A stretch of DNA of 64,000 nt from an uncultured Planctomycetales bacterium (GCA_964572155.1 CAZNDZ010000001.1:207300-271299), one strand, 5' to 3'; shown: positions 36,226 to 56,375, counted from the first letter of the stretch. Numbers and translations: made by a program. Notes: generated by a model from the letters alone, not told the origin.

Positions 36226-37164
36226 TTAGTTGCCACCCAGCTTTTTAAGCGGGTTATTTTGGAAGAAGTCTAAGAAAACAGGTCCGGCAACCAAGATCCC
36301 AACCACTGGAAAGATAAACAAAAGTAATGGGATGAGCATTTTAAGTGGGGCTTTCATGGCCATTTGTTCGCCGCGGCGAAATCTTGCTTCGCGCATGTCT
36401 TCGGATAAGATGTTGAGCGCTTCACTGACTGATGTTCCCATGCGGTCAGCTTGGATGAGCGTACGCGCAAAAGTGGATAAATCTGGTAAATCATATTTGC
36501 GGGCCATGTCACGCAATGCGTCGCGGCGTGGTTTGCCGACATTGATCTCTTGGATCATGTTGCGCAATTCTTGGATGATCACCGTCGGCGCAGATTTTTC
36601 AATCACATATTTTAATGCCATCATAAAATCAAGACCTGCATTAACGCAAAGCCCTAAAAGATCGACGGTGTCAGGCAAATCGCGCACCATGGCATCGCGA
36701 ATTTTGCTAATCTTCGACTTGAGCCAAAAATCTGGCAGGAAATAACCAGCACCAATCGCGACAAAAATACCCATCATAAAACCTTCGTTGCTGGGCTCGA
36801 TAAAAATAAACACAACCCAAATCAACGCAAAGATCATAGCTTCTTTAAGCAAGATAAACTCTTCGGGACTAATCGGCACGCGTGCCATGCTTAAATCCTT
36901 CGCGATGCGTTGACCCAATGCTCCGACGACAAATGGCTTATTAAACACCGCAAAACGGGTGCTCATGTCTGAAATAACAAAGGCTAACCCTGTTTTCTTA
37001 GCTGTTCTGCTTTGTGGCGCGGCAATGCCTGTAACGGCAGGATCAGCCATGGGATCCATGTTTAGCGTCGGACGAAATACAATTTTAAACGGGATAAACA
37101 TGAGGCCTATGGCCATCACCGTCATGAACGCAAACAATAATCCAACAAATAATAAAGCTGACAT
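36226..37164 (-). CDS. tadC: Tad pilus inner-membrane platform protein (T2SS-F domain), TadC-like
   Basis: 312 aa with an N-terminal TM, a cytoplasmic T2SSF-like domain (...DLPDTVDLLGLCVNAGLDF...) and C-terminal TMs. It follows a TadB-like gene, in the usual tadA-tadB-tadC order. Confidence 0.7.
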   Translation of the reverse strand: MSALLFVGLLFAFMTVMAIGLMFIPFKIVFRPTLNMDPMADPAVTGIAAPQSRTAKKTGLAFVISDMSTRFAVFNKPFVVGALGQRIAKDLSMARVPISPEEFILLKEAMIFALIWVVFIFIEPSNEGFMMGIFVAIGAGYFLPDFWLKSKISKIRDAMVRDLPDTVDLLGLCVNAGLDFMMALKYVIEKSAPTVIIQELRNMIQEINVGKPRRDALRDMARKYDLPDLSTFARTLIQADRMGTSVSEALNILSEDMREARFRRGEQMAMKAPLKMLIPLLLFIFPVVGILVAGPVFLDFFQNNPLKKLGGN

Positions 37165-38027
37165 TAGAAGTCCTTAAATTTAGAAATTTTCCAAATGCTC
37201 AACGCGCCAAGTGTCCATAAGATGATACACGCAACCGTTAATTGTTGTCCCATCGGTGAATCACGCATAACATCAAAAAAATGAGGATTGCTTGACGAGA
37301 CAGCAAAATAGAATAAAACAGGCAAGCCTGTCATGACGACACCTTGGATTTTTCCTTGCACCGTCAATGTGGTTAAGCTTTGTTCAACCTTGCGTCGCTC
37401 GCGGGTGGAGGCAATGATGCGCGAGAAAATAAGCGCCAAGTTCCCCCCTGTTTCACGTGCTAACAAAACAGCGGTGACCACTTGCTGCATCGCTGGTGAC
37501 GGCATGCGCTTATAAAGACGGTTTAAGCTATCGTCCAAGGCAACCCCCATTTTATTTTCACCAAGGACAATACCAAATTCTTGACGCAGGGGATCAGGCA
37601 TTTCTTCGACGACAGACTCAATGGCTTGAATCAAACTCAGACCACCGCGGAACGAACTCGACATGATCATTAACGCATCCATCAATTGATTAGCAAACAT
37701 ACTCTTGCGTTTTGAAATCAAGTAACTTAAATGCACGCGAGGGATAAACACGCCTGCGACAATGCCGACGACAATACCGGCAAATTTCATGTCCGGTGGC
37801 GCAAAATAAACTGCCAAGCCGCCCAACAACAGCGGCACATAAATGATCATCTTCTGCGACTTTTTGATCTGATCTTCATTTAGAACAGCGTCGAACTTTA
37901 CAGCAAATTGTGCCTGACTTTTTTGATTCAAGGCAGCTGCGCGCTCCATCATGAAAGGGACAATGAAAATGACCACGATCATGACAGCCGCAAAAACAAG
38001 TATTAATCCGACGAACAAACTAAACAT
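37164..38027 (-). CDS. tadB: Tad pilus inner-membrane platform protein (T2SS-F domain), TadB-like
   Basis: 287 aa, TM-T2SSF-TM architecture (...MPDPLRQEFGIVLGENKMGVALDDSLNRL...). The stop overlaps the tadC start at 37164. Confidence 0.7.
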   Translation of the reverse strand: MFSLFVGLILVFAAVMIVVIFIVPFMMERAAALNQKSQAQFAVKFDAVLNEDQIKKSQKMIIYVPLLLGGLAVYFAPPDMKFAGIVVGIVAGVFIPRVHLSYLISKRKSMFANQLMDALMIMSSSFRGGLSLIQAIESVVEEMPDPLRQEFGIVLGENKMGVALDDSLNRLYKRMPSPAMQQVVTAVLLARETGGNLALIFSRIIASTRERRKVEQSLTTLTVQGKIQGVVMTGLPVLFYFAVSSSNPHFFDVMRDSPMGQQLTVACIILWTLGALSIWKISKFKDF

Positions 38028-42050: not shown

Positions 42051-43402
42051 GGTAATTTTCCTTTAGTGTCCGTCAGCCACGCATGCCCTGTTTTGTCTAA
42101 AACGCGTGTACGTATATACAGCATTTTAGAATCTGTGTCGAAACAGGTTAACTTAATATTATCTCCTGAGAAACACGATGACCCTCCCAATATACCCCCG
42201 CCGCCACATGCTTCCACAGGATTTTCTGTATTGTCAGGTAAGGTTGCCCTGGGCACGCCATTAACACAAAAACGTTGTGTGTCTCTGGTTAACTGAAACA
42301 TGCGTTGAACCAGTTCCACTTGATTTTTAACACCCGTGCTGCGCGCATATTGTCCGTCCTCAGGATTATAAAGTTTTCCTTCTTTAACTTCAAAGTATGT
42401 GCCAGGTTTTGTTTGCGTTAAAATGGACATTTCCCGCTGCAAGCCTGGGGTTCTGCCATTGATATACTCAACACTGCCATCATAATCCCCTTCTTGATTG
42501 TCCATGACCGTTGCTGATGATGCAATGCCATTGGCATCCACGTTATACGCGTAAATCTGTTCATCTTGCCCGTCATTGTCTAAATCAAATGAGGTATTTG
42601 TGCTATTGCCCACATCCACATTTAAATCAATAGCCCTAACTGCTTTCCAGTGCCATGCCATATCCGCACGGGCTAATTTGCCATTGGCAGCAGCCACTTG
42701 AGGATCGTCAGTAAAAATGTCATTGCGGTTTAGGTCATACGCTTCTTTATCTGTTAAAACACCTTGGTCTGCATTGGTCGACTGATTATAAAATAGCGGA
42801 CAGCCGTGCCACGTTTCAACAACTGGATTAACAAGCGGATCGCTGGTTGTTCTTAAACACTGAAATTCCCAACCCTTGTATCGTGTGATGCTAGTGTCGT
42901 CTGGATTGGTTGGCGTGATCGCAACGGGGGTTCCTGAATATGAACGTTGAAATCCCGCCGGCGGATCAAATGTTTTTGGCACCAGCGCCGCCGTGGTTAA
43001 AGGAATATGCACACCATTAACATAAAGATCGGTGGTTGGAAAATTACGTGCGTCAGATAATTCTGAACCTTCGAGGGGGTAATACAATAAATTGGTTAAC
43101 ATGCCGCTGCCCATGGTAAAAAGTTGCGTGCGGTCACTGTTGCCATAGCGGCTAATATCTGGTGAAAGTCTGTCTTCTAAATAAATCACACTACTATTCA
43201 TGCGACCAACGGTTCTGGTCAAAGAGTCATTATACGATTGCAAGAGCGCCATGCGCATGGCTTTTAATTGCACATTTTGTTGCTGGCTTGCAGACACACT
43301 GTTGCGGACAATGCCGCCGATCAAAAACACTAAGACAGCACCGAATACAGCTAATTCCGTCGCTGCTTGTGCTTTTTTATGCTTATTGAGAAACAAAAAC
43401 AT
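42047..43402 (-). CDS. TadG/TadE-like large pilin-like protein (~451-463 aa)
   Basis: ...MFLFLNKHKKAQAATELAVFGAVLVFLIGGIV... N-terminus. The track start is 43438; the internal ATG 43402 is preferred because it reduces overlap with the upstream pilin gene. The remainder is hydrophilic and Asp/Asn-rich. Confidence 0.55.
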   Translation of the reverse strand: MFLFLNKHKKAQAATELAVFGAVLVFLIGGIVRNSVSASQQQNVQLKAMRMALLQSYNDSLTRTVGRMNSSVIYLEDRLSPDISRYGNSDRTQLFTMGSGMLTNLLYYPLEGSELSDARNFPTTDLYVNGVHIPLTTAALVPKTFDPPAGFQRSYSGTPVAITPTNPDDTSITRYKGWEFQCLRTTSDPLVNPVVETWHGCPLFYNQSTNADQGVLTDKEAYDLNRNDIFTDDPQVAAANGKLARADMAWHWKAVRAIDLNVDVGNSTNTSFDLDNDGQDEQIYAYNVDANGIASSATVMDNQEGDYDGSVEYINGRTPGLQREMSILTQTKPGTYFEVKEGKLYNPEDGQYARSTGVKNQVELVQRMFQLTRDTQRFCVNGVPRATLPDNTENPVEACGGGGILGGSSCFSGDNIKLTCFDTDSKMLYIRTRVLDKTGHAWLTDTKGKLP

Positions 43403-43709
43403 TCCCACTCTTGCTCTCCGAGGATGACGATGAATCAATGCGATTCGTAAAATATTCTGTCTGCCCTGTTTGTGGATTTAACAACGGAACCGCCTGGACC
43501 ATGGTTTGAGATTGCGCCTGTGATGAATACCTGACGACGGAATTAACTTTCGATGGATCATACTGATCACCAAAATCATCGACGCTTTGCTTCCACCGCC
43601 CCTGAAATCCGCGCTTGATATACGTATTCATGGCCAGAAGCGCGAAAATAACAATCATCGCCAACACAATAAACTCAACCATCGATTGTCCATTATGTTT
43701 AAGTTTCAT
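43383..43709 (-). CDS. Flp-family pilin-like protein 8 (108 aa)
   Basis: MKLKHNGQSMVEFIVLAMIVIFALLAM: G/xxxxEF motif plus a hydrophobic helix. Confidence 0.6.
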   Translation of the reverse strand: MKLKHNGQSMVEFIVLAMIVIFALLAMNTYIKRGFQGRWKQSVDDFGDQYDPSKVNSVVRYSSQAQSQTMVQAVPLLNPQTGQTEYFTNRIDSSSSSESKSGNVFVSQ

Positions 43710-43712
43710 AAC

Positions 43713-44033
43713 TTAATTAATCCCTGCGTTTGTGACTGTATTTGTAAATGTTTGTGACGTTTCACTAACAATGGTTTGTATCCCCGCCGCTGTTTCATAA
43801 ATTTCTTTATTACTGCCCATTGAAACCATGGAATTTGACGTATCTAAATGCGATGATCCCGCACTATAATCTTGCTCAGAATTTTCTTGTGCTGCTAATT
43901 GGTCTGCCGTTGCCTTAATAATGCTTTGCGTTCCACGTTTAAAAGAGGGCGCCATAAAATACACCGCTGTCATCACCACGCCGACGATGATAATATATTC
44001 AACCAAAGATTGTCCCTGCGCATTATATTTCAT
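43713..44033 (-). CDS. Flp-family pilin-like protein 7 (106 aa)
   Basis: MKYNAQGQSLVEYIIIVGVVMTAVYF. Confidence 0.6.
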   Translation of the reverse strand: MKYNAQGQSLVEYIIIVGVVMTAVYFMAPSFKRGTQSIIKATADQLAAQENSEQDYSAGSSHLDTSNSMVSMGSNKEIYETAAGIQTIVSETSQTFTNTVTNAGIN

Positions 44034-44440
44034 TTAGCAGCCTCTGCTGGTGGCAACTGCGCACTGTCCGACCCTATTTGAGTGCTTTGTGCAAAATATT
44101 TTCCCCATCGCCCGTTTTCATCAAGAACCTTTTTATCCACACTATCGCGTCGCACCTCTGCTTCTGACTGGCCATAATATGGCTCATACTCATACGCTAT
44201 TTTTTGCGTTGCTGGATCAACCTTGGCTGCTCCTAAACAATCAACGCCACCGGCCGTTGCCTGCGTGCAGGCTTGGGTCGCCATATCAACCATATAAATT
44301 TTTCCATCACGATGCCTTGCTTGAAGGCCGCGCTGCACATAAAGTGTCATGGCTGAAATGCCTGCCACCACTACAAAAAACAAAAGCACGTATTCGCTGG
44401 TAACCATCTGCCCTTTGCGTGCGTGCTTGAGTTTCATCAT
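44030..44440 (-). CDS. Flp-family pilin-like protein 6 (136 aa)
   Basis: MMKLKHARKGQMVTSEYVLLFFVVVAGISAM; the C-terminal part contains 3 Cys. Confidence 0.55.
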   Translation of the reverse strand: MMKLKHARKGQMVTSEYVLLFFVVVAGISAMTLYVQRGLQARHRDGKIYMVDMATQACTQATAGGVDCLGAAKVDPATQKIAYEYEPYYGQSEAEVRRDSVDKKVLDENGRWGKYFAQSTQIGSDSAQLPPAEAAK

Positions 44441-44543
44441 ATCATCTCTAAATTTGCTTGAATATTATAAGCCCTAAAGGGGGGATATCGCTATCCCCCC
44501 TTATAAGACTTAAGACACCTCTTAACAAAAACACCTTAAGAGA

Positions 44544-44876
44544 CTATTCCCACTTCTCTCTGGAGGTATTAATGATTTGCGATGTTTCTGTTGTTAGATT
44601 GCTTTCAGTACCATTAATTACCGTCTTTGAAACACCTTGACCAGCGGCGCCACCAAATGTTTCGATGGTGTTGCTGTGCGTTGATGTTATTTTAACGGCC
44701 TTGGTATTGTCTGGTGAATATTGATCACCGATATCATCCGCAGATGACTTGACCTTACCTTGGATACCACGTTTGAGGTATGTTTGCACCGCGAGCAATG
44801 CGCCGATGATGATGATGATCAAAATCGCGTATTCAAGCGTGCTTTGAGCTTTCTTATTATTAAAGTGTTTAAACAT
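44544..44876 (-). CDS. Flp-family pilin-like protein 5 (110 aa)
   Basis: MFKHFNNKKAQSTLEYAILIIIIIGALLAV. A strong SD (AAGGAGGAG) precedes the ATG. Confidence 0.65.
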   Translation of the reverse strand: MFKHFNNKKAQSTLEYAILIIIIIGALLAVQTYLKRGIQGKVKSSADDIGDQYSPDNTKAVKITSTHSNTIETFGGAAGQGVSKTVINGTESNLTTETSQIINTSREKWE

Positions 44877-44893
44877 TACAACTCCTCCTTGTA

Positions 44894-45262
44894 TTAGAGC
44901 CCAGTTGGCATGTCGCCTGTACCAGCTGTAACATTATTTGAATATGTGGTTGATTGTTCACCTTGTTTTAAACGAGAATTTGCACTATCAGCTGCAACAA
45001 CACCTTCATCTAATATCTTTTTCTCTGTAGAATCTTTTTGAACAGAATAATTAGATTGTTGGTAATAAGGTTCATATTGCACTGATTTTCCTAATTGGCC
45101 TGTTGAATTAGCCATATAGGTACTGGCGTCACGCACACGGGCTTGCAATGCACGTTGTGCATATTGTTGCATCGCCACGATACCTGCCACAACCAAGGCG
45201 ATTAACAACGCATATTCTGCGGTGTTTTGAGCTTTCTTATTCTTTAATAAATGCTTAAACAT
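44894..45262 (-). CDS. Flp-family pilin-like protein 4 (122 aa)
   Basis: MFKHLLKNKKAQNTAEYALLIALVVAGIVAM; SD AAGGAGGAAATA upstream. Confidence 0.65.
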   Translation of the reverse strand: MFKHLLKNKKAQNTAEYALLIALVVAGIVAMQQYAQRALQARVRDASTYMANSTGQLGKSVQYEPYYQQSNYSVQKDSTEKKILDEGVVAADSANSRLKQGEQSTTYSNNVTAGTGDMPTGL

Positions 45263-45285
45263 ATATTTCCTCCTTATATGGGAAA

Positions 45286-45588
45286 TTAACCTTCACAATT
45301 ATTAGTTGCTGGATTGAATCTTTGATTTCCAGTACACAAACCTTGATTGGCTTGATTGCCAAAAATATTTGTATTAACTGTTGTTGTTGTAAATGTATCT
45401 TGTGCCGTAACCAATTTACCTGCCATGCTGTTAGCTTGTTGGGTTACTTGATCCATAGACGCATTCATTCTTTGCTTGAATGGGCTCGCATCTGAAACTA
45501 AGAAGGCGATTAAGATGACAATCACCCCTGTGACCAAGACGATATATTCTACCGTGCTCTGGCCTTTTTGACGATTTCTTAAAAACAT
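45286..45588 (-). CDS. Flp-family pilin-like protein 3 (100 aa)
   Basis: MFLRNRQKGQSTVEYIVLVTGVIVILIAFLV; SD AGGAGGAACA upstream; 2 Cys near the C-terminus. Confidence 0.65.
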   Translation of the reverse strand: MFLRNRQKGQSTVEYIVLVTGVIVILIAFLVSDASPFKQRMNASMDQVTQQANSMAGKLVTAQDTFTTTTVNTNIFGNQANQGLCTGNQRFNPATNNCEG

Positions 45589-45621: not shown

Positions 45622-45813
45622 TTAAGGCGTGTTGGCCAAACGCGCTGCCGCGTTGGTCATGCTCACGCTTAATGTGTCCATCGTATTCGTCATCCGACGC
45701 TGAAACAGTGAACCATTCGTTGCCATATAGGCAATTGCCACCATCACAACAGCCGTGACGAGGATAATATACTCGACAGTACTTTGAGCTTTATCCTTTG
45801 ATGGCTTAAACAT
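45622..45813 (-). CDS. flp: Flp pilin (63 aa), candidate major pilin
   Basis: MFKPSKDKAQSTVEYIILVTAVVMVAIAYMA: canonical Flp size and motif. Strong SD AAAGGAGAGGGG upstream. Confidence 0.7.
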   Translation of the reverse strand: MFKPSKDKAQSTVEYIILVTAVVMVAIAYMATNGSLFQRRMTNTMDTLSVSMTNAAARLANTP

Positions 45814-45845
45814 GTGCTCCCCTCTCCTTTTAAGTTTATTAAATA

Positions 45846-45995
45846 TTAATTGGCGAATTCTTGTGTGACAGCTTTTTGGGTCGCTTGCGCGGAACGAAAT
45901 ACATAGGTACTCATCGCTGCAACAGCAGCGGTGATAACAGCCACGACAATGGCATATTCGATCAGGTTTTGTCCACTGGACTTGTGTAGTTGCAT
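45846..45995 (-). CDS. flp: Flp pilin (~49 aa from the internal ATG; 68 aa if from the track start 46052), candidate major pilin
   Basis: MQLHKSSGQNLIEYAIVVAVITAAVAAMSTYVF... An AAAGG lies ~11 nt upstream of ATG 45995. First gene of the pilin run. Confidence 0.6.
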   Translation of the reverse strand: MQLHKSSGQNLIEYAIVVAVITAAVAAMSTYVFRSAQATQKAVTQEFAN

Positions 45996-46159: not shown

Positions 46160-47641
46160 TCAACCTAGACGCGCCCATATTTTTCGGCCATGTTGGTCAA
46201 TAATATCTAAATTATTTAAAAGCCTGCATGAATGCTCAATCGAATCAAAATCTTTATAACCTTCTGTTCTATCTATGGTTACAACATTTAAACGGGCATT
46301 AAATTGCCTGCGTGTGCGAAGCGCGTTGGCACTATCATCAAATACGCCGAAAAGATGTGCCGCATAGTCTGTTTTTAAGTTGTTTAAAGTCGCATTATCA
46401 GCTTTTTTATCTTCTGGCGCGCTATCTAACGTAAAGGTATGCACATAGCTTAAAACGATGTCTTGATCTGAAGTTGCATTTGCAATATTAGTAATCAAGA
46501 CCCGTTCTGGTTTTCCTTCACTGGACAAAATTACAAAGCCGCGATAGGACTCATCTGCCAAAATAATGTCACGGCTTACAAATTTGACAGGTTGATGCAA
46601 AACATAGGTGTTGACCATTTGGATTGGACTTAAATCACCCGCCATCAAAGAAGCCATGTCTTTATTGGCGACATCTATACCTATAATAAATTGACGCTTT
46701 ACATGCGCAATTGGCGCAAAATCAATCAATACATCTTGATTGGAATCAACAAGCGCAATGCGACTGATTTGCTTTGACGGGTCATTGCTCATAGCTCTTA
46801 AAAAATCGTAAACAGCAGCGTCGAGAAAATCACTTTTAATGTTTTTAATAATCAGTGGTCGGATATTATTAAGCAACGTATCTGCCATCCGCAGCGTCGC
46901 GGTCTCTATTGGCGTTAGTCGCAGGGGCTCACAAAAATTGCGAGCAATATCGTGATGACGCGCATCAATGAAAAAATGACTGTCGTCGCCAAGTTCCACT
47001 TTAAGACAAGCCACGCCAATTTGCCGATACGCCGCTTCCTTGGCAAGGGTTGCTGCATCAACGTTTTCTAAATCGTCGACGGATTTCACACTACCCCATG
47101 GACTTGGAAATAAATCGTTGAACGCTGCTTGGATAAAGAAATCTTTAGCTGTTGCAACATCCGCCCCATCTTCAAGCGGTGGTAAGGTATTGATCGTCGG
47201 TAAATCTGCTTCTCGCGGCGGATCTTGAAATAGTGGGATCATTGGTTCGACACGTAAAGTTAACGGCTCGTCCTGTTGTGCGTCTTCTTTGATGTCGTCT
47301 TGTGAAGACATGATAGGCAAATCTTCAGACGCCATTAATGGCGTCTCTACGGATAATTGTGGAACCGTGGGAATGTTGGCAATGATGGCGGGGGGCAAAC
47401 TGGCAATCAATTGCGCTTTTTTATCGTCGGGGATCTGAAATTTATTTTTAAACTTTCGACCACGCGGACTTACAATGTTAGCTTCTTTAAGCACTTCGTG
47501 CACGGAAGACTTGGATACAACCCGACCAAATTGTTTATCAACTAATTCAACCAACTCTCGACAAGAAAGATTGGCAGATTGTTTTTTCTGGTCCAAGATA
47601 AAAGCAACCACGTCATCCGTTAATTTATACGTTACACCCAT
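46160..47641 (-). CDS. Hypothetical 493-aa protein with an N-terminal HTH-like segment, embedded in the Tad locus
   Basis: MGVTYKLTDDVVAFILDQKKQSANLSCRELVELVDKQFGRVVSKSSVHEVLKEANIV (helix-turn-helix-like), a Pro/Asp-rich linker, then a ~330-aa domain I could not assign. Confidence 0.5.
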   Translation of the reverse strand: MGVTYKLTDDVVAFILDQKKQSANLSCRELVELVDKQFGRVVSKSSVHEVLKEANIVSPRGRKFKNKFQIPDDKKAQLIASLPPAIIANIPTVPQLSVETPLMASEDLPIMSSQDDIKEDAQQDEPLTLRVEPMIPLFQDPPREADLPTINTLPPLEDGADVATAKDFFIQAAFNDLFPSPWGSVKSVDDLENVDAATLAKEAAYRQIGVACLKVELGDDSHFFIDARHHDIARNFCEPLRLTPIETATLRMADTLLNNIRPLIIKNIKSDFLDAAVYDFLRAMSNDPSKQISRIALVDSNQDVLIDFAPIAHVKRQFIIGIDVANKDMASLMAGDLSPIQMVNTYVLHQPVKFVSRDIILADESYRGFVILSSEGKPERVLITNIANATSDQDIVLSYVHTFTLDSAPEDKKADNATLNNLKTDYAAHLFGVFDDSANALRTRRQFNARLNVVTIDRTEGYKDFDSIEHSCRLLNNLDIIDQHGRKIWARLG

Positions 47642-47644: not shown

Positions 47645-47986
47645 TTATGTGATCGTCAGTTCATCCCCTTGTTGAGTTTGCGTCTGATCAATTTTACCAG
47701 CAGGTAATTCAATCGCGCAACAAGAATTAAAGAACAGGGGAGACAAATGATATGGCTTTAATTGACGGCACAAACCAACAACACGATTTTTCTGATCTAG
47801 AAAAATAACATCGATTGCAAAACGCATAAAAAACATGTGCACCGACGAGCAAGGCGTGATCTGTAGGCCTTCTCCATCTGGCAAATAGTTTTCCCCAAGC
47901 AAACCCTTCATGCGTAGTTTGGCTGTGTCCGCAACTCTCAGGCGTGTCGCTAAGATGCTGTTGCGGGTTTTGTTGGTTAGCGTCAT
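47645..47986 (-). CDS. DUF192 (COG1430) family protein, frequently associated with tad loci
   Basis: ...RLRVADTAKLRMKGLLGENYLPDGEGLQITPCSSVHMFFMRFAIDVIFLDQKNRVVGL...CCAIELPAG matches the DUF192 pattern (A...RxxGLMgr...gmlf...vhmf.m.f.lDiifld). Confidence 0.55.
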   Translation of the reverse strand: MTLTNKTRNSILATRLRVADTAKLRMKGLLGENYLPDGEGLQITPCSSVHMFFMRFAIDVIFLDQKNRVVGLCRQLKPYHLSPLFFNSCCAIELPAGKIDQTQTQQGDELTIT

Positions 47987-47988: not shown

Positions 47989-50175
47989 TTATGGATTAAA
48001 AATATTCTTAGAAAGTGGGATGCCGCGTGTTTGGAAGTCTTCGAAAATTTTTGGCACATACCCTGTGGGCGTATATTCACCAACAACAACCCCTTCGGCA
48101 TTGATGCCGCGTTGACGGAAGATGAAAATGTCTTTCATTTCAGGAAGGCCGTCGACCATGTTACCTGTAAGCTCCGTGATCGCGGTGATCTTACGCGTCC
48201 CGTCGGAGAAACGGTTAATTTGAATGACAATATTGATCGCAGATGCCGCCATTTCATAGATCGCGCGCAATGGCAATTCAATCCCTGAGAGCAGCACCAT
48301 GGAGGTCACACGAGACATAACGTCGCGTGGTGTGTTGGCGTGAAGCGTTGTCAACGAACCATCGTGACCTGTGTTCATCGCCTGCAACATGTCTAAAACT
48401 TCCGGTCCACGACACTCACCGATAATAATGCGGTCTGGGCGCATACGTAACGTGTTAATAAATAACTCACGGATGGTGATCTTACCACGACCTTCAATGT
48501 TCGCTGGTCTTGCTTCAAGGCGCGCCCAATGTGATTTGGTTAAACGCAATTCCGCCGCGTCTTCGATTGTAATGATGCGTTCATTATCAGGAATAAATTG
48601 TGAAACAATGTTGAGCAGCGTTGTCTTACCAGCGCCGGTACCACCAGAGACAATAATATTCTTACGCCCAATAACGCACGCATTCATAAACTCACCCATG
48701 GCAGGCGTCAGCGAATGAAAACGATTAAGCAAATCATCGATCGTATATTTTTCTTGAGAGAATTTACGAATGGTGATCATGGGGCCGCCCAACGACAACG
48801 GCGGAATGATGGCATTGATACGGCTTCCATCAGGCAAACGCGCATCCACCATCGGCGTTGATTCATCAACCCGACGACCTAAAGGTGCTAAAATACGATC
48901 AATCGTTGCACGCACCTGATCGTTGGAAATAAAACGCTTATTCGTGAGCAGCAATTTACCTTTTTTCTCAACAAAGATTTCATCCTTATTGTTAACCATG
49001 ATGTCATTGATATCGACATCCGCTAAGAAATCTTCCAATGGCCCCAAACCTAAGGCCTCGTTGACAATTTCACGCACAAGTTTAGAACGTTCTTCTTGAG
49101 ATGAAATAAAACTACCCGATGCATCGGTCATCAAATCGGTTACAATAACTTCGGCTGCCTTGCGAATATTTGCAGCTTGCGCAGGATCTGAGAGCGCTTC
49201 CGGCGATATCTTTTGCAAATTCATGCGCTCAACCAACTTTTGATGGATTAAGCGCTTTAATTTAATAACTTCGTCTTCTTCTTTTTTAAAATAAGTCCCG
49301 CCACCAGAGCCCTGCTTAATACCAAATTTTTCCCAGAACTCGGCATCTTTCTTATTCTTAGGGTCTGCCGAGCGAACCTTAACAACGTCGGAGACCTGCA
49401 CAAAGATGTCTTCATCTTGTAATTTATCCGCCATGCCAAAAAACAGCTCGGAGACTTTTGCCTTTGGACTGTCTAAAACACATGGAATACCGCGATTAAG
49501 CGCTGAACCAACGGTTTTACCGTCGGATGGGATTAACGCAAAAATATCGCAAGGCAATGCTGTTTTCACTTCTTGCCATGCAACACCCCCGCGACTTTCA
49601 GCACGATTTAATATGATTTTAATCATACGCAGCGGATAATGCAGTGCTTGCAACATCTCAAGCGTTGACTTGGCTTGATACACCGCCAAGACATCCGGCG
49701 TGGTTGGCAAGAAAATCAAACTAGATTGATCAAGAACGCTAATCAAGACTTCATTAAATGTGCCGCCGCCATCGACGATGATATATTCATATTGTAACAT
49801 GGCGCGTTTTAAAAATATGCGCACATTGTCGCCTGTCACCAAACCTGCTTGCCGTAAATGATTAATGCCAGATAAGAAATCAACGCCGCTAACATGCTTA
49901 ACCACAAAACGACGCATAAAATCTGGGTTGTCATCTTTGGCCACTTCAGCGAGCAAGTCTGCTAAACAAAATGGTGCGGAAATATTTAAGGAACGGGCAA
50001 GATCTTGACCCGCTTGTAAATTCATATCAAGCAACAATACTTTCTTAGCCTTCATGGCAAGCGCGGCAGCAATGTTTGCGCTAATAAAGGTCTTACCGAC
50101 CCCGCCCTTATTGGAAAATATGGTTATGATTTTACAAGACATACTTCTCTTTGGATCATTTTGCCTGGTAGACAA
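47989..50175 (-). CDS. cpaF: Fused Tad secretion ATPases: N-terminal CpaE/TadZ-like ParA/MinD ATPase plus C-terminal CpaF/TadA VirB11-family ATPase (728 aa)
   Basis: N-part: KIITIFSNKGGVGKTFISANIAAALAMKAKKVLLLDMNLQ (deviant Walker A) ...YIIVDGG... C-part: ...IIVSGGTGAGKTTLLNIVSQFIPDNERIITIEDAAELRL...PDRIIIGECRG...NTGHDGSLTTLHAN... (CpaF/TadA Walker A and B, Asp and His boxes). One ORF, no internal stop. Confidence 0.8.
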   Translation of the reverse strand: MSTRQNDPKRSMSCKIITIFSNKGGVGKTFISANIAAALAMKAKKVLLLDMNLQAGQDLARSLNISAPFCLADLLAEVAKDDNPDFMRRFVVKHVSGVDFLSGINHLRQAGLVTGDNVRIFLKRAMLQYEYIIVDGGGTFNEVLISVLDQSSLIFLPTTPDVLAVYQAKSTLEMLQALHYPLRMIKIILNRAESRGGVAWQEVKTALPCDIFALIPSDGKTVGSALNRGIPCVLDSPKAKVSELFFGMADKLQDEDIFVQVSDVVKVRSADPKNKKDAEFWEKFGIKQGSGGGTYFKKEEDEVIKLKRLIHQKLVERMNLQKISPEALSDPAQAANIRKAAEVIVTDLMTDASGSFISSQEERSKLVREIVNEALGLGPLEDFLADVDINDIMVNNKDEIFVEKKGKLLLTNKRFISNDQVRATIDRILAPLGRRVDESTPMVDARLPDGSRINAIIPPLSLGGPMITIRKFSQEKYTIDDLLNRFHSLTPAMGEFMNACVIGRKNIIVSGGTGAGKTTLLNIVSQFIPDNERIITIEDAAELRLTKSHWARLEARPANIEGRGKITIRELFINTLRMRPDRIIIGECRGPEVLDMLQAMNTGHDGSLTTLHANTPRDVMSRVTSMVLLSGIELPLRAIYEMAASAINIVIQINRFSDGTRKITAITELTGNMVDGLPEMKDIFIFRQRGINAEGVVVGEYTPTGYVPKIFEDFQTRGIPLSKNIFNP

Positions 50176-51910
50176 TAGGAATGGTTACATTTAAATCCGA
50201 CGCTTGCATGTCTTTTGAAAATGGAGCGTAAGGCGCCGCGATTTTGGCAGCATTTAACGCATCGTCGTCGAAAGCTTGATGCCCCGAAGACTGCACCACG
50301 TTAGCTGCAATCAATGTCCCATCTTTTTGAATATTTAGTCTTAATTTAACTGTGCCCTGCCATTTATTTTTCAATGCTTCCAGTGGATATGAAATATTTT
50401 GCGATATCTTCACTTGAATATCTTGCATATATTTCTGAACGGTCGCAATCGGCTCTTGAACAGCTACTTCTTTTTTAATCTGCTCTTCTAAGATCGCCTT
50501 GGGCTTCTGCGCCGGCATTTCAACGCGTTTAACCTTTGCTGGCACAACAGCTGGCTCATCTTGTGCTGGCATGGTTGTAACATTACCCATATTAGGATTT
50601 GGATCAACCGGCTCACGCTTATAATTATTTATTTTCTCTGCTTCATCAACAAAATCATTTAATTCCTTCGTTGGTATTACAAATTGATCCTTGGCATATT
50701 TTTTATTATGCACAATAACTGGCGTTAAGGTGATCACAAGTTCCTTGGCTTCATCTGGTGCTTGCTTAGAAGAGCTTCTAAACATCATCCCAACAACGGG
50801 AATCTTTCCTATAAATGGAACGCTTTTCTTTTGATCACTGTCTGTATAACGAATCAACCCCGCCATAACCACCGTTTGTTTATCATCCAACATCAATTGC
50901 GTTGTAGCGTTGCGTGTTTTATAAGCGACACCGTTTGTCGATGTTGCGGCAACAGGAAATGTTGTATCAATGTCGCTGACTTGCAAGTTCATCAACACAT
51001 CGATCTTGCCTTCTTTAATTGTTGGTGTAACTGTAACGGTTAAACCATATTGCTTGAAGGTGACATTGGTTTGTGTGCTGGTCGATGACGCAGATGTTGT
51101 GGTCGACTGGATTGGTACTTCCCCGCCAACATTAATGGTGGCTTCTTTACCGCTGGTTACCAACATGCGTGGGCGTGATAATGTGCGCGCTTTACCTTGA
51201 GACACTAAAAGATTAATGGTGTTGATGATGCTGGTGGTGCGATTAAATTGCCCTAACTTAAACCAGTTGGGAGACCCACCGGTTGTTGGGTTGCCTGATT
51301 CCGCATAAGTTAATGTTGTGCCGCCGCCGCTATTTGTCCAATCAAATCCTAACTTCTTATCAAGTGTTGAGGATAATTCCGTGATCTGCATATCAATCTG
51401 AATTAATTCCTGCGCTTCATCTTCCTTGCACAAATTAATCACTTGTTCAGAAAATGGTTCGAGCACTTTATCTAAACGGGATTTTTGATCTTTATTAACG
51501 TTGCCCGAAAGAACCACTTTGCCTTCCACATAATTAGCATCATAAACAATTGTTGTAATACCAGCATCTTTCAATAGCGTTTCAATGCGTGCTTTAATCC
51601 TTGCTAAGTCATCATTAGCGACGTTGACGGAATAAACCTTCTTGCCACCTTTATCCCAAACAAAAAGGATCGTGTGCCCCATGCGCCTTGCCACAACAGA
51701 AACTTCATTATCATTGGCGTCAGCAATGTCAGCAATGTCAGGATCAGTTACAGAAACGCGAGTTAAACCATCGACCTTAACGTTCTGAACGTCGCCTAGG
51801 ATCATGTTAATATTATGGTCTTCTTGGGCAATGGACATTGTCGCTTGTGACCCTATGAAAAGAAGTCCCAGCGCAACGAAAGATAATTTAATACGGGAGA
51901 TGCGCATCAA
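50156..51910 (-). CDS. cpaC: Tad secretin (CpaC/RcpA) with a C-terminal TonB-C-like domain extension
   Basis: Signal peptide MMRISRIKLSFVALGLLFIGSQATMSIAQ. Secretin C-domain ...VPFIGKIPVVGMMFRSSSKQAPDEAKELVITLTPVIV. The last ~110 aa (...ISYPLEALKNKWQGTVKLRLNIQKDGTLIAANVVQSSGHQAFDDDALNAAKIAAPYAPF...) match the TonB_C signature YP..A...eGtV.v.f.I..dG.v....V..SSG...LD.aA..Av...p..P. Confidence 0.75.
   Translation of the reverse strand: MMRISRIKLSFVALGLLFIGSQATMSIAQEDHNINMILGDVQNVKVDGLTRVSVTDPDIADIADANDNEVSVVARRMGHTILFVWDKGGKKVYSVNVANDDLARIKARIETLLKDAGITTIVYDANYVEGKVVLSGNVNKDQKSRLDKVLEPFSEQVINLCKEDEAQELIQIDMQITELSSTLDKKLGFDWTNSGGGTTLTYAESGNPTTGGSPNWFKLGQFNRTTSIINTINLLVSQGKARTLSRPRMLVTSGKEATINVGGEVPIQSTTTSASSTSTQTNVTFKQYGLTVTVTPTIKEGKIDVLMNLQVSDIDTTFPVAATSTNGVAYKTRNATTQLMLDDKQTVVMAGLIRYTDSDQKKSVPFIGKIPVVGMMFRSSSKQAPDEAKELVITLTPVIVHNKKYAKDQFVIPTKELNDFVDEAEKINNYKREPVDPNPNMGNVTTMPAQDEPAVVPAKVKRVEMPAQKPKAILEEQIKKEVAVQEPIATVQKYMQDIQVKISQNISYPLEALKNKWQGTVKLRLNIQKDGTLIAANVVQSSGHQAFDDDALNAAKIAAPYAPFSKDMQASDLNVTIPIVYQAK
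50159..50500 (-). other. TonB-C-like domain fused to the secretin C-terminus
   Basis: See above; coordinates derived from residue positions ~470-584. Confidence 0.5.
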
Positions 51911-52785
51911 AGCTCCTTGCCGCCTCTAAAGATTTGTATATCTGGTTTAGCGGGCTTGTCGTCGTCTTGATTAATGATGCCTTTTAAATCGTCCGGTAAA
52001 TCAATGTCTGCGCCTTGATTTTGCAAGACATAATCTGCCAATGTTTTCCATGTGGTTGTCTTGACCATTTGGCGTTCGGTTTCTTGAGGAGAACGCAATG
52101 CAAATTCAAGCGTACCATTCTTATCCGCAAAAATTAAATAACCTGCTTCTTGAGGATCAACCGCTAAGGTCACCTTGATCGCCGGAGAATTTTGTTGTTC
52201 TTCATAACGTGTGCCTGTTTCATCTAAATTGGTGTTAACCGCCAAGACTTCTAGGCCTTGAAAGACCATGGCCGTAATGGTTTTTTGTTTGCGTTCGCCA
52301 TCTTTGCCTAATCGGCCTTCAGGAACATTGAGCCTTGCGATGATGTCAACCATATCCCCTGGATTAAGCAAACCACCGACGGCTGCCAAAGAATCGATCT
52401 TAACGGTAACCGCGCGCTTGCCTTGTGGCGTCTTTAACGCTAAAGAAGGTTTGGATTTCTTAACAGGTTGTCCACCTGCATTAGCTGCTTGTTGTTGCTG
52501 TAATTTCGTTTGAAGCTCAGCAATTTGCTTTTGAACCACTTGGGCTTGTTCAGTGCGCACTGCTTGGATTTGTTGCTGTAAAATCGCCGCGCGTTGATCT
52601 GCTTGCGCTTGCATTTCAGCAACTATTTTCTTTTGCTTAGCTTCATATTCTTCCCGACGCTCAATATCGTGGCGCTCAATGGTGCTGTTGACAGCAAAAC
52701 CAATCACGGCTGTTGCCGCGATACCCAAGACCACCGCGACGATCAGCAATAGAATTTGTTTTTTATTATTATCCATAGTGCGCAA
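51907..52785 (-). CDS. cpaB: Flp pilus assembly protein CpaB/RcpC (TM anchor, Q-rich coiled coil, SAF/RcpC domain)
   Basis: MRTMDNNKKQILLLIVAVVLGIAATAVIGF; a coiled coil with a QQQQ run; ...RAVTVKIDSLAAVGGLLNPGDMVDIIARL... Overlaps the secretin start (ATGA). Confidence 0.7.
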   Translation of the reverse strand: MRTMDNNKKQILLLIVAVVLGIAATAVIGFAVNSTIERHDIERREEYEAKQKKIVAEMQAQADQRAAILQQQIQAVRTEQAQVVQKQIAELQTKLQQQQAANAGGQPVKKSKPSLALKTPQGKRAVTVKIDSLAAVGGLLNPGDMVDIIARLNVPEGRLGKDGERKQKTITAMVFQGLEVLAVNTNLDETGTRYEEQQNSPAIKVTLAVDPQEAGYLIFADKNGTLEFALRSPQETERQMVKTTTWKTLADYVLQNQGADIDLPDDLKGIINQDDDKPAKPDIQIFRGGKEL

Positions 52786-52805: not shown

Positions 52806-53735
52806 TTATTTGCCGCCGCCAATGAGATTTTGATTAACCCTAACCTTAATTTTTTCTGCTAAATTATTGATGTGTTCTAAAACCGCCTGTTGTTGCTTGC
52901 GTGTGGTCAATGCTGCGATCAAATCTGCCTTGATTTCAGCAAATTGTTTTGTCTCGCCGCCTTTTTTCTCGTCGACATGGACAATATAATAATTGTTGTC
53001 CGCGCCTTTAAAAACACCGCTAGTACCACCGGCATCTAAATTCGCTATGGCAGATTGCATCGCCGCTGTTGGGGCTTTGGTAAAAGTCTTTAACGCGCCA
53101 CCATCCGCTGCAGTTTTACCCTTGGATTGCGCCTTGGCGATATCAGCAAAATTGCCACCTTGTAAAATAGAAACCAAAACATTCTTCGCGGTAGCTTCAT
53201 CCGCTAATACAATCTCGCGCACCTTCCATTGGATAGGCATGACAAAATCGGCTTTATTATCATTGTAATATTTTTGTGCTTCTGCTTCTGTGACGGTCAC
53301 ATCTTTGGTTAAACGATTCGCTAATTCTTGAACTAACATGGTGCGACGAAAATCTTCAACAGCTTCGGAAATATCTTTGCTTTGACCAATGCCGCTATCC
53401 TCTGCGTCTTTTACCAACAATTGTTGGCGAATGAGTTCGTTGAGAACTTGTTCCTTAACACCTGGTTTGCTTGGATCAAAGGTTGGTAAACTTTCTTTGA
53501 GCAATCGAATACGCTGATTAAACTCTTCGGTCGTTAATGTCCAGCCGCCAACCTTTGCGATGACATCATCGGAGAGGGGCTTATTATCGTCAGAAACAAC
53601 ATCCGGCGTGGAAGCCTTAGTGGTTTGCGTTGATGCTACAGGAGCCTTTGTCTCTGGTTTTTTAGGATTAATGATGTCGCAACCTGTTACAGCAAAAGCA
53701 ATAACAACAACTAAAAAACCGCAAAAACGATTCAT
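52806..53735 (-). CDS. Parvulin-type peptidyl-prolyl cis-trans isomerase lipoprotein (PpiC/PrsA/SurA-like)
   Basis: Lipobox MNRFCGFLVVVIAFAVTGC. SurA-N-like helical part, then a parvulin domain (...GGNFADIAKAQSKG...GGALKTFTK...GVFKGADNNYYIVHVDEKK...). Confidence 0.7.
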   Translation of the reverse strand: MNRFCGFLVVVIAFAVTGCDIINPKKPETKAPVASTQTTKASTPDVVSDDNKPLSDDVIAKVGGWTLTTEEFNQRIRLLKESLPTFDPSKPGVKEQVLNELIRQQLLVKDAEDSGIGQSKDISEAVEDFRRTMLVQELANRLTKDVTVTEAEAQKYYNDNKADFVMPIQWKVREIVLADEATAKNVLVSILQGGNFADIAKAQSKGKTAADGGALKTFTKAPTAAMQSAIANLDAGGTSGVFKGADNNYYIVHVDEKKGGETKQFAEIKADLIAALTTRKQQQAVLEHINNLAEKIKVRVNQNLIGGGK

Positions 53736-53815: not shown

Positions 53816-54799
53816 TTATGCTACCAAAGCTTCAACTGCTTGCTTTTCCGAAATTAGCTCTTGAAGCGTTGCTTGAATTTTTTCTTTAGCAAAGGCATTG
53901 TGTTCTAAACCTTGCACAATTTCCCAATCTTGGCCATTGCTACGCAACGGATACCCAAACATAATCCCTTGTGGAACGCCATAGCTGCCATCTGATGAAA
54001 CAGCTGCAGAGAAAAATTCGCCTGCAGGGGTTGGCGTGATGATCCCGCGCACGGTATCAATGACCGCATTGGCTGCCGACGCTGCAGATGACAGGCCACG
54101 CGCTTTGATGATGGCTGCGCCGCGTTTCTGAACGGTTTCAATAAAGGTTGTTTTAAGCCAGTTTTCGTCGGTGATCGCCGCTGTCGCTGGTTTACCGTTG
54201 ACGGTGGCATGATAAAAGTCGGGATATTGCGTCGCTGAGTGATTCCCCCAAATGCCGACATTTTTAACAGCGGTTGTGGCCACTGCAGATTTTTGAGCCA
54301 ATTGTGTTGTGGCACGATTTTGATCAAGCATGGTCATGGCAAAAAAGTTTTTTGCTGGGATGTTTTTAGCCGTGCTCTTTGCAATCCATGCATTGGTATT
54401 ACAAGGATTCCCGACGACCAAAACCTTGCACGTTGGCTTTGCGCTATTCGATAAGGCCTTGCCTTGTTCGATAAAAACGCCGCCATTGATTTTCAACAAA
54501 TCGCCGCGCTCCATGCCTTCTTTGCGTGGGACGCTACCAACTAACAGCGCCCAATCAATGTCTTTGAAGGCAACATTAGGATCCGACGACATGGTGACTG
54601 ATTTTAACAATGGAAATGCGCAATCATCGAGTTCCATGATAACGCCGCCTAAAGCTGGCAGGGCTTTTTCAAGCTCGAGCAAACTTAATTCAACTTCTGT
54701 ATCACGCCCAAACATCTCACCGGAGGCGATGCGAAATAACAAGGCATAACCAATTTGACCTGCAGCACCCGTGATTGCGACTTTAACTTTTTTTGCCAT
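53816..54799 (-). CDS. mdh: Malate dehydrogenase (NAD), LDH-like type 2 MDH
   Basis: [31 protein letters not shown] (GxGxxG), ...[14 protein letters not shown]..., 327 aa. Confidence 0.85.
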
Positions 54800-56361: not shown

Positions 56362-56375
56362 CTTTCAACTTCCTC

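What the first reader, a model, noticed from the sequence alone, without database searches (positions are those of the whole stretch)
50156..50500. Secretin with a C-terminal TonB-C-like domain
The last ~110 aa of the outer-membrane secretin match the TonB C-terminal domain signature (YP..A...QGTV.L...I..DGT.....VVQSSGHQAFDDDALNAAK). TonB-C domains bind TonB-box beta-strands in the periplasm. Fused to a secretin, this domain could tether the channel to a periplasmic or inner-membrane partner, or replace the missing TadD pilotin. I am not aware of this being a described feature of RcpA/CpaC secretins.
Basis: partly seen in the sequence, partly recalled or inferred. Interest (0 to 1): 0.6.

Follow-up and report, generated by a model that had tools for sequence, protein, structure and literature searches.

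The report
Tad secretin carrying a TonB-type tail
The outer-membrane pilus channel of this Omnitrophota bacterium really does end in a TonB-type binding domain, a fusion kept across the phylum but seemingly never discussed, and it probably docks the channel to a nearby periplasmic partner and does not transduce energy.

Summary
The 584-aa ORF at 50156-51910 (-) is a CpaC/RcpA-type secretin. Its last ~97 residues are a TonB/TolA-type C-terminal domain (Pfam TonB_C E=7e-18; AF2 pLDDT >90; best PDB match H. pylori TonB-CTD). A disordered linker joins it to the barrel.

It is not a misassembly. The fusion occurs in 79 of 80 related species genomes, nearly all labelled Omnitrophota, and in 144 of the 150 best protein clusters. 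The six clusters without it are 280-418 aa and look truncated. The domain is as conserved as the barrel (0.62 vs 0.65), the linker is not (0.21), and 11 clusters carry two tandem copies.

The gene sits in the conserved Tad-like locus upstream of a giant ORF, near dnaA. That locus is published, but the papers I read do not mention the TonB domain. NCBI names some family members "TonB family protein".

The protein is not a TonB: it has no membrane anchor, and no ExbB/ExbD lies in the window. The domain sits where RcpA binds TadD, and cpaD follows cpaC in Caulobacter. Linkers are mostly short (median 41 aa). I therefore favour an outer-membrane-proximal docking or anchoring module. The partner is unidentified.

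Verdict: a new variant of a known kind, of moderate interest.

The parts
50156..51907 (-). Secretin gene (583 aa from the ATG at 51907; the ORF listing extends it to a TTG at 51910). CpaC/RcpA-type Tad secretin with a C-terminal TonB_C domain.
   Evidence: Sequence search of the PDB: 8jvb E=2e-52, RcpA 8odn E=3e-39.
51824..51907 (-). Probable Sec signal peptide (MRISRIKLSFVALGLLFIGSQATMSIA|QE). It has no lipobox cysteine.
   Evidence: Read by eye from the translation. No predictor was run. AF2 places a helix at residues 6-19.
51620..51814 (-). N-terminal T2SS-T3SS_pil_N domain, the periplasmic beta-sandwich typical of CpaC/RcpA.
   Evidence: Pfam PF13629 E=2.8e-11, residues 33-97. pLDDT about 90-95.
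50711..51208 (-). Secretin (beta-barrel and gate) domain.
   Evidence: Pfam PF00263 E=2.9e-39, residues 235-400.
50450..50707 (-). Variable, mostly disordered linker, rich in Pro, Glu and Lys (about residues 402-487). It contains one short predicted helix (414-427).
   Evidence: pLDDT <50 over most of it. Composition 12% P, 18% D/E, 14.5% K/R; column identity 0.21 against 0.62-0.65 for the flanking domains. Length across the family 14-355 aa, median 41.
50159..50449 (-). TonB/TolA-type C-terminal domain (alpha0-alpha1-beta1-beta2-alpha2-beta3). The Pfam TonB_C envelope corresponds to window 50168-50398.
51907..52776 (-). CpaB/RcpC alignment-complex protein. It has a conserved C-terminal motif PDIQIFRGG after a variable linker.
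   Evidence: PF16976 E=1e-25 and TIGR03177 E=5e-29. Present in 80/80 related loci. Conservation profile.
52806..53735 (-). SurA-like, PpiC-type PPIase. Probable lipoprotein with a conserved G-C-D lipobox. It lies 20 nt upstream of cpaB.
   Evidence: PF13145, PF13624 and PF13623. Present in 71/80 loci on the same strand. Lipobox conservation. West-Roberts 2023 lists this PPIase as part of the conserved locus.
47989..50142 (-). TadZ/CpaE-like (ParA/MinD) domain fused to a TadA/CpaF ATPase. 717 aa as called; the ORF listing extends it to 50175.
   Evidence: PF01656 and PF13614 at residues 14-218, PF00437 at 375-652. TIGR03819 E=2e-95. Gene call.
45622..45995 (-). Two Flp-type pilin genes, 63 aa and 49 aa, with G/A-x4-EY class III signal motifs.
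   Evidence: Translations. Gene calls.
43383..45588 (-). Six pilin or pseudopilin-like small proteins (100-136 aa).
   Evidence: Class_IIIsignal hit E=5.5e-4, below the Pfam cutoff, on the 100-aa protein. Conserved N-terminal hydrophobic segments and presence in 43-50 loci.
36226..38027 (-). Two T2SSF-family platform proteins (TadB/TadC).
   Evidence: PF00482 E=1e-18 and 1e-15.

Best explanation
The ORF is the outer-membrane secretin of a Tad-like (type IVc) pilus or secretion machine of an Omnitrophota bacterium. A genuine TonB/TolA-type C-terminal domain has been permanently fused to its periplasmic C-terminus through a disordered linker of variable length.

Shown:
- The domain is real, folded, terminal, and as conserved as the barrel.
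- The fusion is kept in almost every related species genome, nearly all of them labelled Omnitrophota, and is sometimes duplicated in tandem.
- The protein has a signal peptide, not a TonB membrane anchor, so it is not an energy-transducing TonB.

Inferred:
- A secretin C-terminus emerges on the periplasmic side, outside the barrel. That is where P. aeruginosa RcpA presents the tail that binds the pilotin TadD, and where the Caulobacter lipoprotein CpaD (encoded just after cpaC) forms a belt around CpaC that is proposed to bind peptidoglycan.
- Most linkers are only 20-40 residues.
- The 13-14 TonB_C domains of the assembled ring would therefore stay close to the outer membrane. There they most likely act as a built-in docking or anchoring module, taking the place of the TadD/CpaD accessory layer.
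- By analogy with TonB and TolA, the domain would capture a short extended peptide of a partner by beta-strand augmentation. Candidate partners are an assembly lipoprotein, such as the co-located SurA-like lipoprotein, or a protein associated with the cell wall.

The partner has not been identified. The confidence given is for the whole statement including the inferred mechanism; the identity part alone I put at about 0.97.
For: Identity:
- Pfam and NCBIfam hits.
- AF2 domain model with mean pLDDT 90.6.
- Foldseek top hits are TonB and TolA C-terminal domains.
- Sequence hits to HpTonB 6sly (E=1e-12) and RcpA 8odn (E=3e-39).

Conservation:
- All 85 homologues that cover 94-100% of the query (32-74% identity) carry PF13629+PF00263+PF03544. 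One further hit is a fragment on a 1.8-kb contig.
- 144 of the 150 best 50%-identity clusters carry both modules. The other 6 are 280-418 aa and look truncated.
- 79 of 80 species loci have the domain in the secretin ORF.
- Column identity is 0.62 for TonB_C, 0.65 for the barrel and 0.21 for the linker.
- 11 of 150 clusters have two tandem TonB_C copies.

Geometry:
- Linker length: first quartile 31, median 41, third quartile 85 aa. The domain ends within 1-3 residues of the C-terminus in 100 of 144 clusters.

Context:
- No TPR/TadD, CpaD or OmpA-like protein lies among the Tad-locus ORFs of the window.
[quoted passage not shown] Accessory outer-membrane modules differ between Tad systems (PMC13170226).
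- TonB and TolA C-terminal domains bind their targets by beta-strand addition (PMC12204202).
Against: - No partner or Ton-box-like motif was found.
- The only short, strongly conserved terminal motif in the locus is the CpaB C-terminus PDIQIFRGG. In P. aeruginosa the corresponding RcpC beta-hairpin is modelled as binding the secretin N-domain.
- The whole region (gyrA-MDH-PPIase-Tad) is syntenic across the phylum. Adjacency of the SurA-like lipoprotein is therefore weak evidence of a functional link.
- A quarter of the family has linkers above 85 aa, and this window's protein has about 85. Those could span the periplasm.
- A TadD or CpaD homologue elsewhere in the genome was not excluded.
- No multimer modelling was possible, so the location of the domain relative to the barrel is inferred and not modelled.
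Confidence: 0.5

Rival explanations
1. Peptidoglycan anchor. The ring of TonB_C domains binds the cell wall directly and fixes the secretin to it, as the AMIN domains do for PilQ and as is proposed for the OmpA-like CpaD of Caulobacter.
For: - Short linkers would reach the wall but not the inner membrane.
- Copy number varies (one or two tandem domains in 11 of 150 clusters), as is typical of wall-binding modules.
- The Caulobacter Tad secretin is proposed to be wall-anchored through CpaD.
- No other wall-binding domain is found in the locus.
- From memory and not verified here (the paper is not held): Kaserer et al. 2008 reported affinity of the TonB C-terminus for peptidoglycan.
Against: - The established binding mode of TonB and TolA C-terminal domains is peptide beta-augmentation, not glycan binding.
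- In the Ton system the peptidoglycan contact documented by NMR is that of ExbD.
- None of the longer family members carries a recognised wall-binding domain that would support the idea.
Confidence: 0.2
2. Trans-envelope coupling ('reverse TonB'). The outer-membrane-borne TonB_C reaches down and captures a Ton-box-like strand on an inner-membrane component (CpaB, the platform, or an ExbBD/TolQR-type motor partner). This would link channel gating or assembly to the inner membrane or to the proton-motive force.
For: - This window's linker is about 85 residues, rich in Pro, Glu and Lys like the TonB spacer, and could span the periplasm.
- A TonB paralogue (TonB3, with PocAB) is required in trans for type IVa pilus assembly in P. 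aeruginosa, and an interaction with PilQ has been suggested (PMC5285504).
Against: - Most family members have linkers of 20-40 aa, with a minimum of 14. That is too short to reach the inner membrane, yet the domain is equally conserved in them.
- The IM-OM link in Tad machines is already provided by CpaB/RcpC binding the secretin N-domain.
- No ExbB/ExbD genes lie in the window, and no other TonB_C ORF lies within +-10 kb in 80 related loci.
Confidence: 0.1
3. Substrate or pilin capture. The tethered domains act as fishing lines at the periplasmic mouth of the channel. They would bind an extended segment of Flp or minor pilins, or of the adjacent giant protein, to guide it into the secretin.
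For: - The locus always precedes giant ORFs.
- It encodes many pilin-like paralogues with sharply conserved short motifs.
- Multiple flexible copies per channel would suit a capture role.
Against: - A secretin C-terminus lies on the outside of the barrel, not at its lumen entrance (established secretin architecture).
- No secretin is known to recruit its substrate through its C-terminal region.
- No motif was linked to the domain.
Confidence: 0.08
4. Self-association. Neighbouring TonB_C domains dimerise or form a ring that staples the secretin multimer together, with no external partner.
For: - Local concentration would be very high in a 13-14-mer.
- From memory: short TonB C-terminal constructs crystallise as intertwined dimers. 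One search lists entry 1u07, whose title notes large structural changes between fragments.
- Tandem duplication in some lineages.
Against: - The AF2 monomer model is a complete, confident, closed domain.
- Longer TonB C-terminal constructs are monomeric in solution (from memory).
- Odd symmetries (C13) would leave unpaired domains.
Confidence: 0.1
5. Artefact. A frameshift or misassembly has joined a secretin gene to a neighbouring tonB gene.
For: None beyond the general possibility.
Against: - The identical ORF occurs on 8 independent contigs.
- The fusion is present in 79 of 80 species genomes and 144 of 150 protein clusters.
- There is no N-terminal TonB anchor segment between the two modules.
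Confidence: 0.01

Closest known systems
RcpA/CpaC secretins of Tad (type IVc) pili: P. aeruginosa RcpA (PDB 8odn), C. crescentus CpaC
   Same: - PF13629 N-domain plus PF00263 secretin domain, and a signal peptide.
- Gene follows cpaB/rcpC and precedes the tadZ/tadA genes.
- Flp-type pilins and TadB/TadC lie in the same locus.
   Different: - RcpA ends in a short unstructured S-domain whose last four residues bind the TPR pilotin TadD.
- CpaC works with a separate lipoprotein, CpaD.
- Here the C-terminus carries a linker plus a folded TonB_C domain, and no TadD or CpaD homologue is in the locus.
TonB / HasB / FusB energy transducers (C-terminal domain, PF03544)
   Same: - Sequence signature (YP motif, G-x-V beta1, DG turn, SSG...FD..A helix) and fold.
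- The closest solved structure is H. pylori TonB-CTD at 29-30% identity.
- The domain is preceded by a flexible spacer containing proline.
   Different: - There is no N-terminal transmembrane anchor and so no ExbB/ExbD-binding segment.
- The polypeptide is anchored in the outer membrane, not the inner membrane.
- No exbB/exbD genes are nearby.
- It works like a TonB C-terminal domain at most in its binding mode, not as an energy transducer.
TolA domain III (PF13103 TonB_2)
   Same: A weaker but significant hit (E=7.8e-8, residues 492-569) that includes the extra N-terminal helix. TolAIII structures are among the top fold matches.
   Different: It scores lower than TonB_C, and there is no TolQ/R/B/Pal context.
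Accessory modules of other secretins: PilQ AMIN domains, T2SS S-domain with pilotin, CpaD belt, TadD ring
   Same: An add-on to the conserved barrel that serves anchoring or assembly and varies between lineages.
   Different: The fold is different (TonB_C). It is fused at the C-terminus, whereas other systems use an N-terminal domain or a separate lipoprotein.
PocAB-TonB3 of P. aeruginosa
   Same: It links a TonB-family protein functionally with a secretin-based type IV pilus machine.
   Different: TonB3 is a separate inner-membrane protein with its own ExbBD-like motor. Its mechanism is unknown, and no physical contact with the secretin has been shown.

Membership tests
Secretin superfamily (PF00263) | C-terminal secretin (barrel and gate) domain scoring above the family threshold | tested here: met
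   PF00263 E=2.9e-39, 134.8 bits against a cutoff of 27.5. PDB secretins score E=1e-30 to 1e-52.
Tad-type secretin (RcpA/CpaC) | N-terminal T2SS-T3SS_pil_N (PF13629) domain in place of N0/STN or AMIN domains | tested here: met
   PF13629 E=2.8e-11. There are no STN, Secretin_N or AMIN hits.
Tad-type secretin (RcpA/CpaC) | Encoded in a tad/cpa locus with CpaB/RcpC, TadZ, TadA, TadB/C and Flp pilins | tested here: met
   The order is conserved in 77-80 of 80 related loci. No prepilin peptidase (TadV/CpaA) was found in the window.
Tad-type secretin (RcpA/CpaC) | Short unstructured C-terminal tail that recruits the TPR pilotin TadD | tested here: not met
   The C-terminus is a folded TonB_C domain ending 3 residues before the stop. 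No TPR protein lies in the locus.
Tad-type secretin (RcpA/CpaC) | Forms a 13-14-mer outer-membrane channel | not testable with these tools
   This needs multimer modelling or experiment.
TonB_C domain (PF03544 / TIGR01352) | Sequence match above the curated thresholds | tested here: met
   65.3 bits against 24.6. 63.4 bits against 27.1.
TonB_C domain (PF03544 / TIGR01352) | alpha/beta fold with a three-stranded sheet and an exposed beta3 edge strand | tested here: met
   AF2 model with mean pLDDT 90.6 and strands at residues 45-54, 59-66 and 98-107 of the 110-residue model. The top 23 Foldseek hits are all TonB, TolA, HasB or FusB C-terminal domains.
TonB energy transducer (whole protein) | N-terminal transmembrane helix that docks into ExbB/ExbD | tested here: not met
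   The N-terminus is a cleavable-type signal peptide followed by secretin domains.
TonB energy transducer (whole protein) | Partner genes exbB/exbD (or tolQ/tolR) | tested here: not met
   None of the ORFs scanned in the window has a MotA_ExbB or ExbD hit. The rest of the genome was not available.
TonB energy transducer (whole protein) | Binds the Ton box of a TonB-dependent transporter | not testable with these tools
   No partner could be modelled, and no TonB-dependent transporter lies in the window.
TolA domain III (PF13103) | Sequence match above the threshold | tested here: met
   32.8 bits against 22. The hit overlaps the TonB_C hit and scores lower.

The most novel reading that the evidence does not exclude
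The TonB_C domains are the receiving end of an inverted Ton-like connection. A ring of outer-membrane-anchored TonB_C modules would grasp a Ton-box-like strand on an inner-membrane or motor-associated component, or on the neighbouring giant protein or pilus cargo. Opening or loading of the secretin would then be mechanically coupled to the inner membrane. This would be a new way to use the TonB fold, and a physical explanation for the unexplained TonB3/TonB2 requirement of type IV pili in other bacteria.
Probability: 0.1. Interest if true: 0.75.

Novelty: new variant of a known kind. Interest (0 to 1): 0.4.

Why it matters
1. Annotation. NCBI names some members of this secretin family 'TonB family protein'. 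A 2026 preprint counted 'TonB-domain' genes next to giant ORFs as a separate category. These may simply be this secretin, so reading the domain correctly avoids false inferences about TonB-dependent import in Omnitrophota.

2. Biology. Tad secretins use different outer-membrane accessory layers: TadD in Pseudomonas and CpaD in Caulobacter. Omnitrophota appear to have a third solution, built into the secretin itself. This gives a clean, testable handle on how the channel of the phylum's signature 'predation' locus is assembled or anchored.

3. The TonB fold. The fusion extends the known uses of the TonB_C fold to a protein anchored in the outer membrane.

Tried and rejected
- Pfam scan of all 150 representative proteins in one call failed on the residue limit. 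I replaced it with local HMMs built from alignment A1.
- A homologue search with the C-terminal 110 aa alone returned nothing. A profile of 15 C-terminal domains returned only short fragments of 58-171 aa, most on contigs under 2 kb; these look like truncated copies of the same fusion. I therefore could not find the nearest stand-alone TonB, nor show whether Omnitrophota have a canonical TonB.
- I searched for a Ton-box-like partner motif in conserved locus proteins. The one good candidate, the CpaB C-terminus, is better explained by the known RcpC hairpin-RcpA N-domain contact. I do not take it as the ligand, though competition for it cannot be excluded.
- The long family members (up to 1091 aa) carry no extra wall-binding or other Pfam domain that would hint at function.
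- Kaserer 2008, on TonB affinity for peptidoglycan, is not held in the library. That point rests on memory only.
- The artefact or misassembly reading is rejected.

Full report
**What is in the sequence**

The finding's coordinates (50156-50500, minus strand) cover the stop codon and the last 114 codons of an ORF at 50156-51910. Independent gene calls on other contigs that carry the identical protein start it one codon later, at the ATG at 51907, giving 583 aa.

Pfam finds these domains:
- T2SS-T3SS_pil_N, residues 33-97, E=2.8e-11.
- Secretin, residues 235-400, E=2.9e-39.
- TonB_C (PF03544), residues 505-581, E=7.2e-18, 65 bits against a cutoff of 24.6.
- An overlapping, weaker TonB_2/TolA-type hit, residues 492-569, E=7.8e-8.

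NCBIfam TIGR01352 (tonB_Cterm) agrees at 1.9e-17. The N-terminus reads as a Sec signal peptide without a lipobox; I judged this by eye and ran no predictor.

**Structure**

I made an AlphaFold2 model from an alignment of 44 homologues.
- The N-domain and barrel elements are confident.
- Residues about 402-486 are a low-confidence linker.
- The C-terminal domain has pLDDT 92-97.

Modelled alone, the last 110 residues reach a mean pLDDT of 90.6, with the order helix-helix-strand-strand-helix-strand. Foldseek against the PDB returns only TonB, TolA, HasB and FusB C-terminal domains in the top 23 places. The best are H. pylori TonB-CTD entries 5lw8 and 6sly (E 6e-6 and 1e-5, TM 0.69-0.81, 29-30% identity). 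The list includes TonB chains taken from complexes with BtuB, FhuA, FoxA and TbpA.

A profile search of PDB sequences hits a 502-aa secretin-family protein, 8jvb (E=2e-52, query residues 29-433). It also hits P. aeruginosa RcpA 8odn (E=3e-39) and, separately, HpTonB (E=1e-12, query residues 471-568).

**Context**

All genes from 63.9 kb down to 32 kb lie on the minus strand, in this order:
- dnaA, dnaN, gyrB, gyrA.
- A GST, a CN-hydrolase and malate dehydrogenase.
- A SurA-like PPIase.
- CpaB/RcpC.
- The secretin.
- A TadZ(ParA-like)-TadA fusion.
- DUF192.
- A 493-aa protein with an N-terminal HTH-like segment.
- Two Flp-type pilins with G/A-x4-EY motifs.
- About seven pilin-like small proteins.
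- Proteins of 463 aa and 1158 aa with no Pfam match.
- Two T2SSF (TadB/TadC) proteins.
- A 1352-aa protein.

After one plus-strand ATPase gene comes an open frame of at least 10,169 codons that runs off the window. This is the conserved 'type II secretion-like' or Tad locus that precedes giant genes in Omnitrophota. West-Roberts et al. 2023 describe it, including its Rotamase_2 PPIase and its small genes with class III signal peptides. Seymour et al. 2023 describe it as the Tad/RcpA complex. 'TonB' does not occur in the text of either paper.

**How widespread the fusion is**

- All 85 homologues that cover 94-100% of the query (32-74% identity) carry PF13629+PF00263+PF03544. One further hit at 44% identity is a fragment on a 1.8-kb contig. 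Named members are Candidatus Omnitrophota or Omnitrophica, called 'TonB family protein' or 'pilus assembly protein CpaC'. The next-best secretins (23-32% identity) lack TonB_C.
- An exhaustive profile search of 1.84 billion cluster representatives filled its 150-row list with E-values below 1e-96. Local HMMs show both modules in 144 of these. The six exceptions are 280-418 aa and look like fragments. Eleven clusters carry two tandem TonB_C domains.
- In one-genome-per-species data, 241 genomes encode a relative. Of the best 80 loci, 79 have the TonB_C domain in the secretin ORF; the exception is a 5.4-kb contig. No other TonB_C ORF lies in the +-10-kb flanks.
- Titles are almost all Omnitrophota. 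A few are labelled Planctomycetales, Elusimicrobia or Phycisphaerae MAGs. The same gyrA-MDH-PPIase-Tad synteny is common among the 80 loci, though I did not check it separately for those few. I did not verify their labels.
- Column identity is 0.62 for the TonB_C domain, 0.65 for the barrel and 0.21 for the linker.
- Linker length ranges from 14 to 355 residues (first quartile 31, median 41, third quartile 85). The domain ends within three residues of the C-terminus in 100 of 144 clusters.

This is the signature of a selected, flexibly tethered functional module. It is not an assembly artefact.

**What it is not**

It is not a TonB protein.
- The defining N-terminal transmembrane anchor that docks into ExbB/ExbD is absent.
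- The polypeptide is anchored in the outer membrane through the secretin barrel.
- No exbB/exbD/tolQ/tolR genes are in the window.

I could not examine the rest of the genome.

**How it most likely works (inference)**

A secretin C-terminus lies on the periplasmic side, on the outside of the barrel.
- In P. aeruginosa the unstructured RcpA tail there binds the TPR pilotin TadD through its last four residues, and this is essential for secretin assembly (PMC10499894).
- In Caulobacter, TadD's orthologue is dispensable. [quoted passage not shown] It is proposed to anchor the barrel to peptidoglycan (PMC13170226).
- Tad systems therefore differ in this accessory layer.
- In Omnitrophota neither a TadD-like nor a CpaD-like protein is in the locus. 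The position 'just after the secretin core' is occupied by the fused linker plus TonB_C.

TonB and TolA C-terminal domains bind their targets by beta-strand addition (PMC12204202). Most linkers in the family are too short to reach the inner membrane. I therefore favour a built-in docking or anchoring module that binds an outer-membrane-proximal partner.

An assembly lipoprotein is one candidate. The co-located SurA-like protein has a conserved G-C-D lipobox and a variable tether. A component associated with the cell wall is another.

Direct peptidoglycan binding is the main rival. It would explain the variable copy number, but it relies on weak precedent. Coupling to the inner membrane or to a motor is less likely for two reasons:
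- Most linkers are short.
- The IM-OM bridge in Tad machines is already provided by CpaB/RcpC, whose C-terminal hairpin is modelled as completing the secretin N-domain sheet (PMC12307814).

The sharply conserved CpaB C-terminus here (PDIQIFRGG) is most simply that hairpin.

The requirement for TonB3/PocAB in P. aeruginosa type IVa pili (PMC5285504) is an intriguing precedent in trans. It keeps the coupling idea alive at low probability.

**Novelty and verdict**

The locus and its secretin are published, and domain databases already flag both domains. In the papers I could search and read, nobody has pointed out or interpreted the TonB_C domain on the secretin.

A 2026 preprint lists 'TonB-domain content' genes beside giant ORFs without connecting them to the secretin. 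I suspect, but did not verify, that these are the same protein.

I class the finding as a new variant of a known kind: a real, phylum-wide architectural variant with a plausible but unproven role. Interest is moderate.

Noticed in passing
window 2-30508 (-): A stop-free frame of at least 10,169 codons runs off the left end of the window. This is a giant ORF directly downstream of the Tad-like locus. Its first 1000 residues contain a Peptidase_C39 hit (E=1.2e-9). It fits the published Omnitrophota giant genes.
   Followed up: partly
window 47989-50175 (-): The TadZ/CpaE-like ParA/MinD domain (residues about 14-218) and the TadA/CpaF ATPase (about 375-652) are fused into one protein of 717-728 aa. 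Homologues are present in 77 of 80 related loci.
   Followed up: partly
window 52806-53735 (-): SurA-like PpiC-type PPIase with a conserved lipobox (G-C-D; Asp at +2 in about 80% of 62 orthologues), 20 nt upstream of cpaB. Present in 71 of 80 loci. It is a possible assembly chaperone or pilotin substitute for the secretin.
   Followed up: partly
window 53816-63999 (-) and loci L004-L083: The window lies next to the likely replication origin (dnaA, dnaN, gyrB, gyrA). The order gyrA-GST-CN hydrolase-MDH-PPIase-Tad locus is conserved across many Omnitrophota species (34-62 of 80 loci for the individual flanking genes). V. archaeovorus is reported to have its Tad locus at 12-30 kb of its genome.
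   Followed up: partly
homologues P0008, P0119-P0123, P0202, P0216, P0221, P0225, P0242: Eleven of the 150 representative clusters carry two tandem TonB_C domains after the secretin. P0216 (1091 aa) has about 300 further residues with no Pfam match.
   Followed up: partly
alignment A1, C-terminal tails: Many closer homologues, but not the window's protein, extend 15-20 residues beyond the TonB_C domain and end in a conserved V/I-x-A/S/T-Y-COOH motif (for example ...VVAAY...IVASY). Another group ends in ...LKNVAKHK. These could be extra terminal recognition tags, comparable to the RcpA tail that binds TadD.
   Followed up: no
window 43383-45588 and 38040-38375 (-): Seven pilin-like paralogues (100-136 aa) have strongly conserved internal motifs: YEPYY in the 122-aa and 136-aa proteins, and D-x-(F/I)-G-D-Q-Y in the 108-aa and 110-aa proteins. 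Each occurs in 43-50 related loci. No Pfam family covers them.
   Followed up: no
window 46160-47641 (-): A 493-aa protein whose first about 75 residues (weak HTH_32 hit) are highly conserved across 51 orthologues while the rest is poorly conserved. It is a possible regulator embedded in the locus. DUF192 (47645-47986), just upstream of it, is also conserved (63 of 80 loci).
   Followed up: no
window 30930-32099 (+): The only plus-strand gene in the window, an AAA_14/DUF4143 ATPase, sits between the 1352-aa gene and the giant ORF.
   Followed up: no
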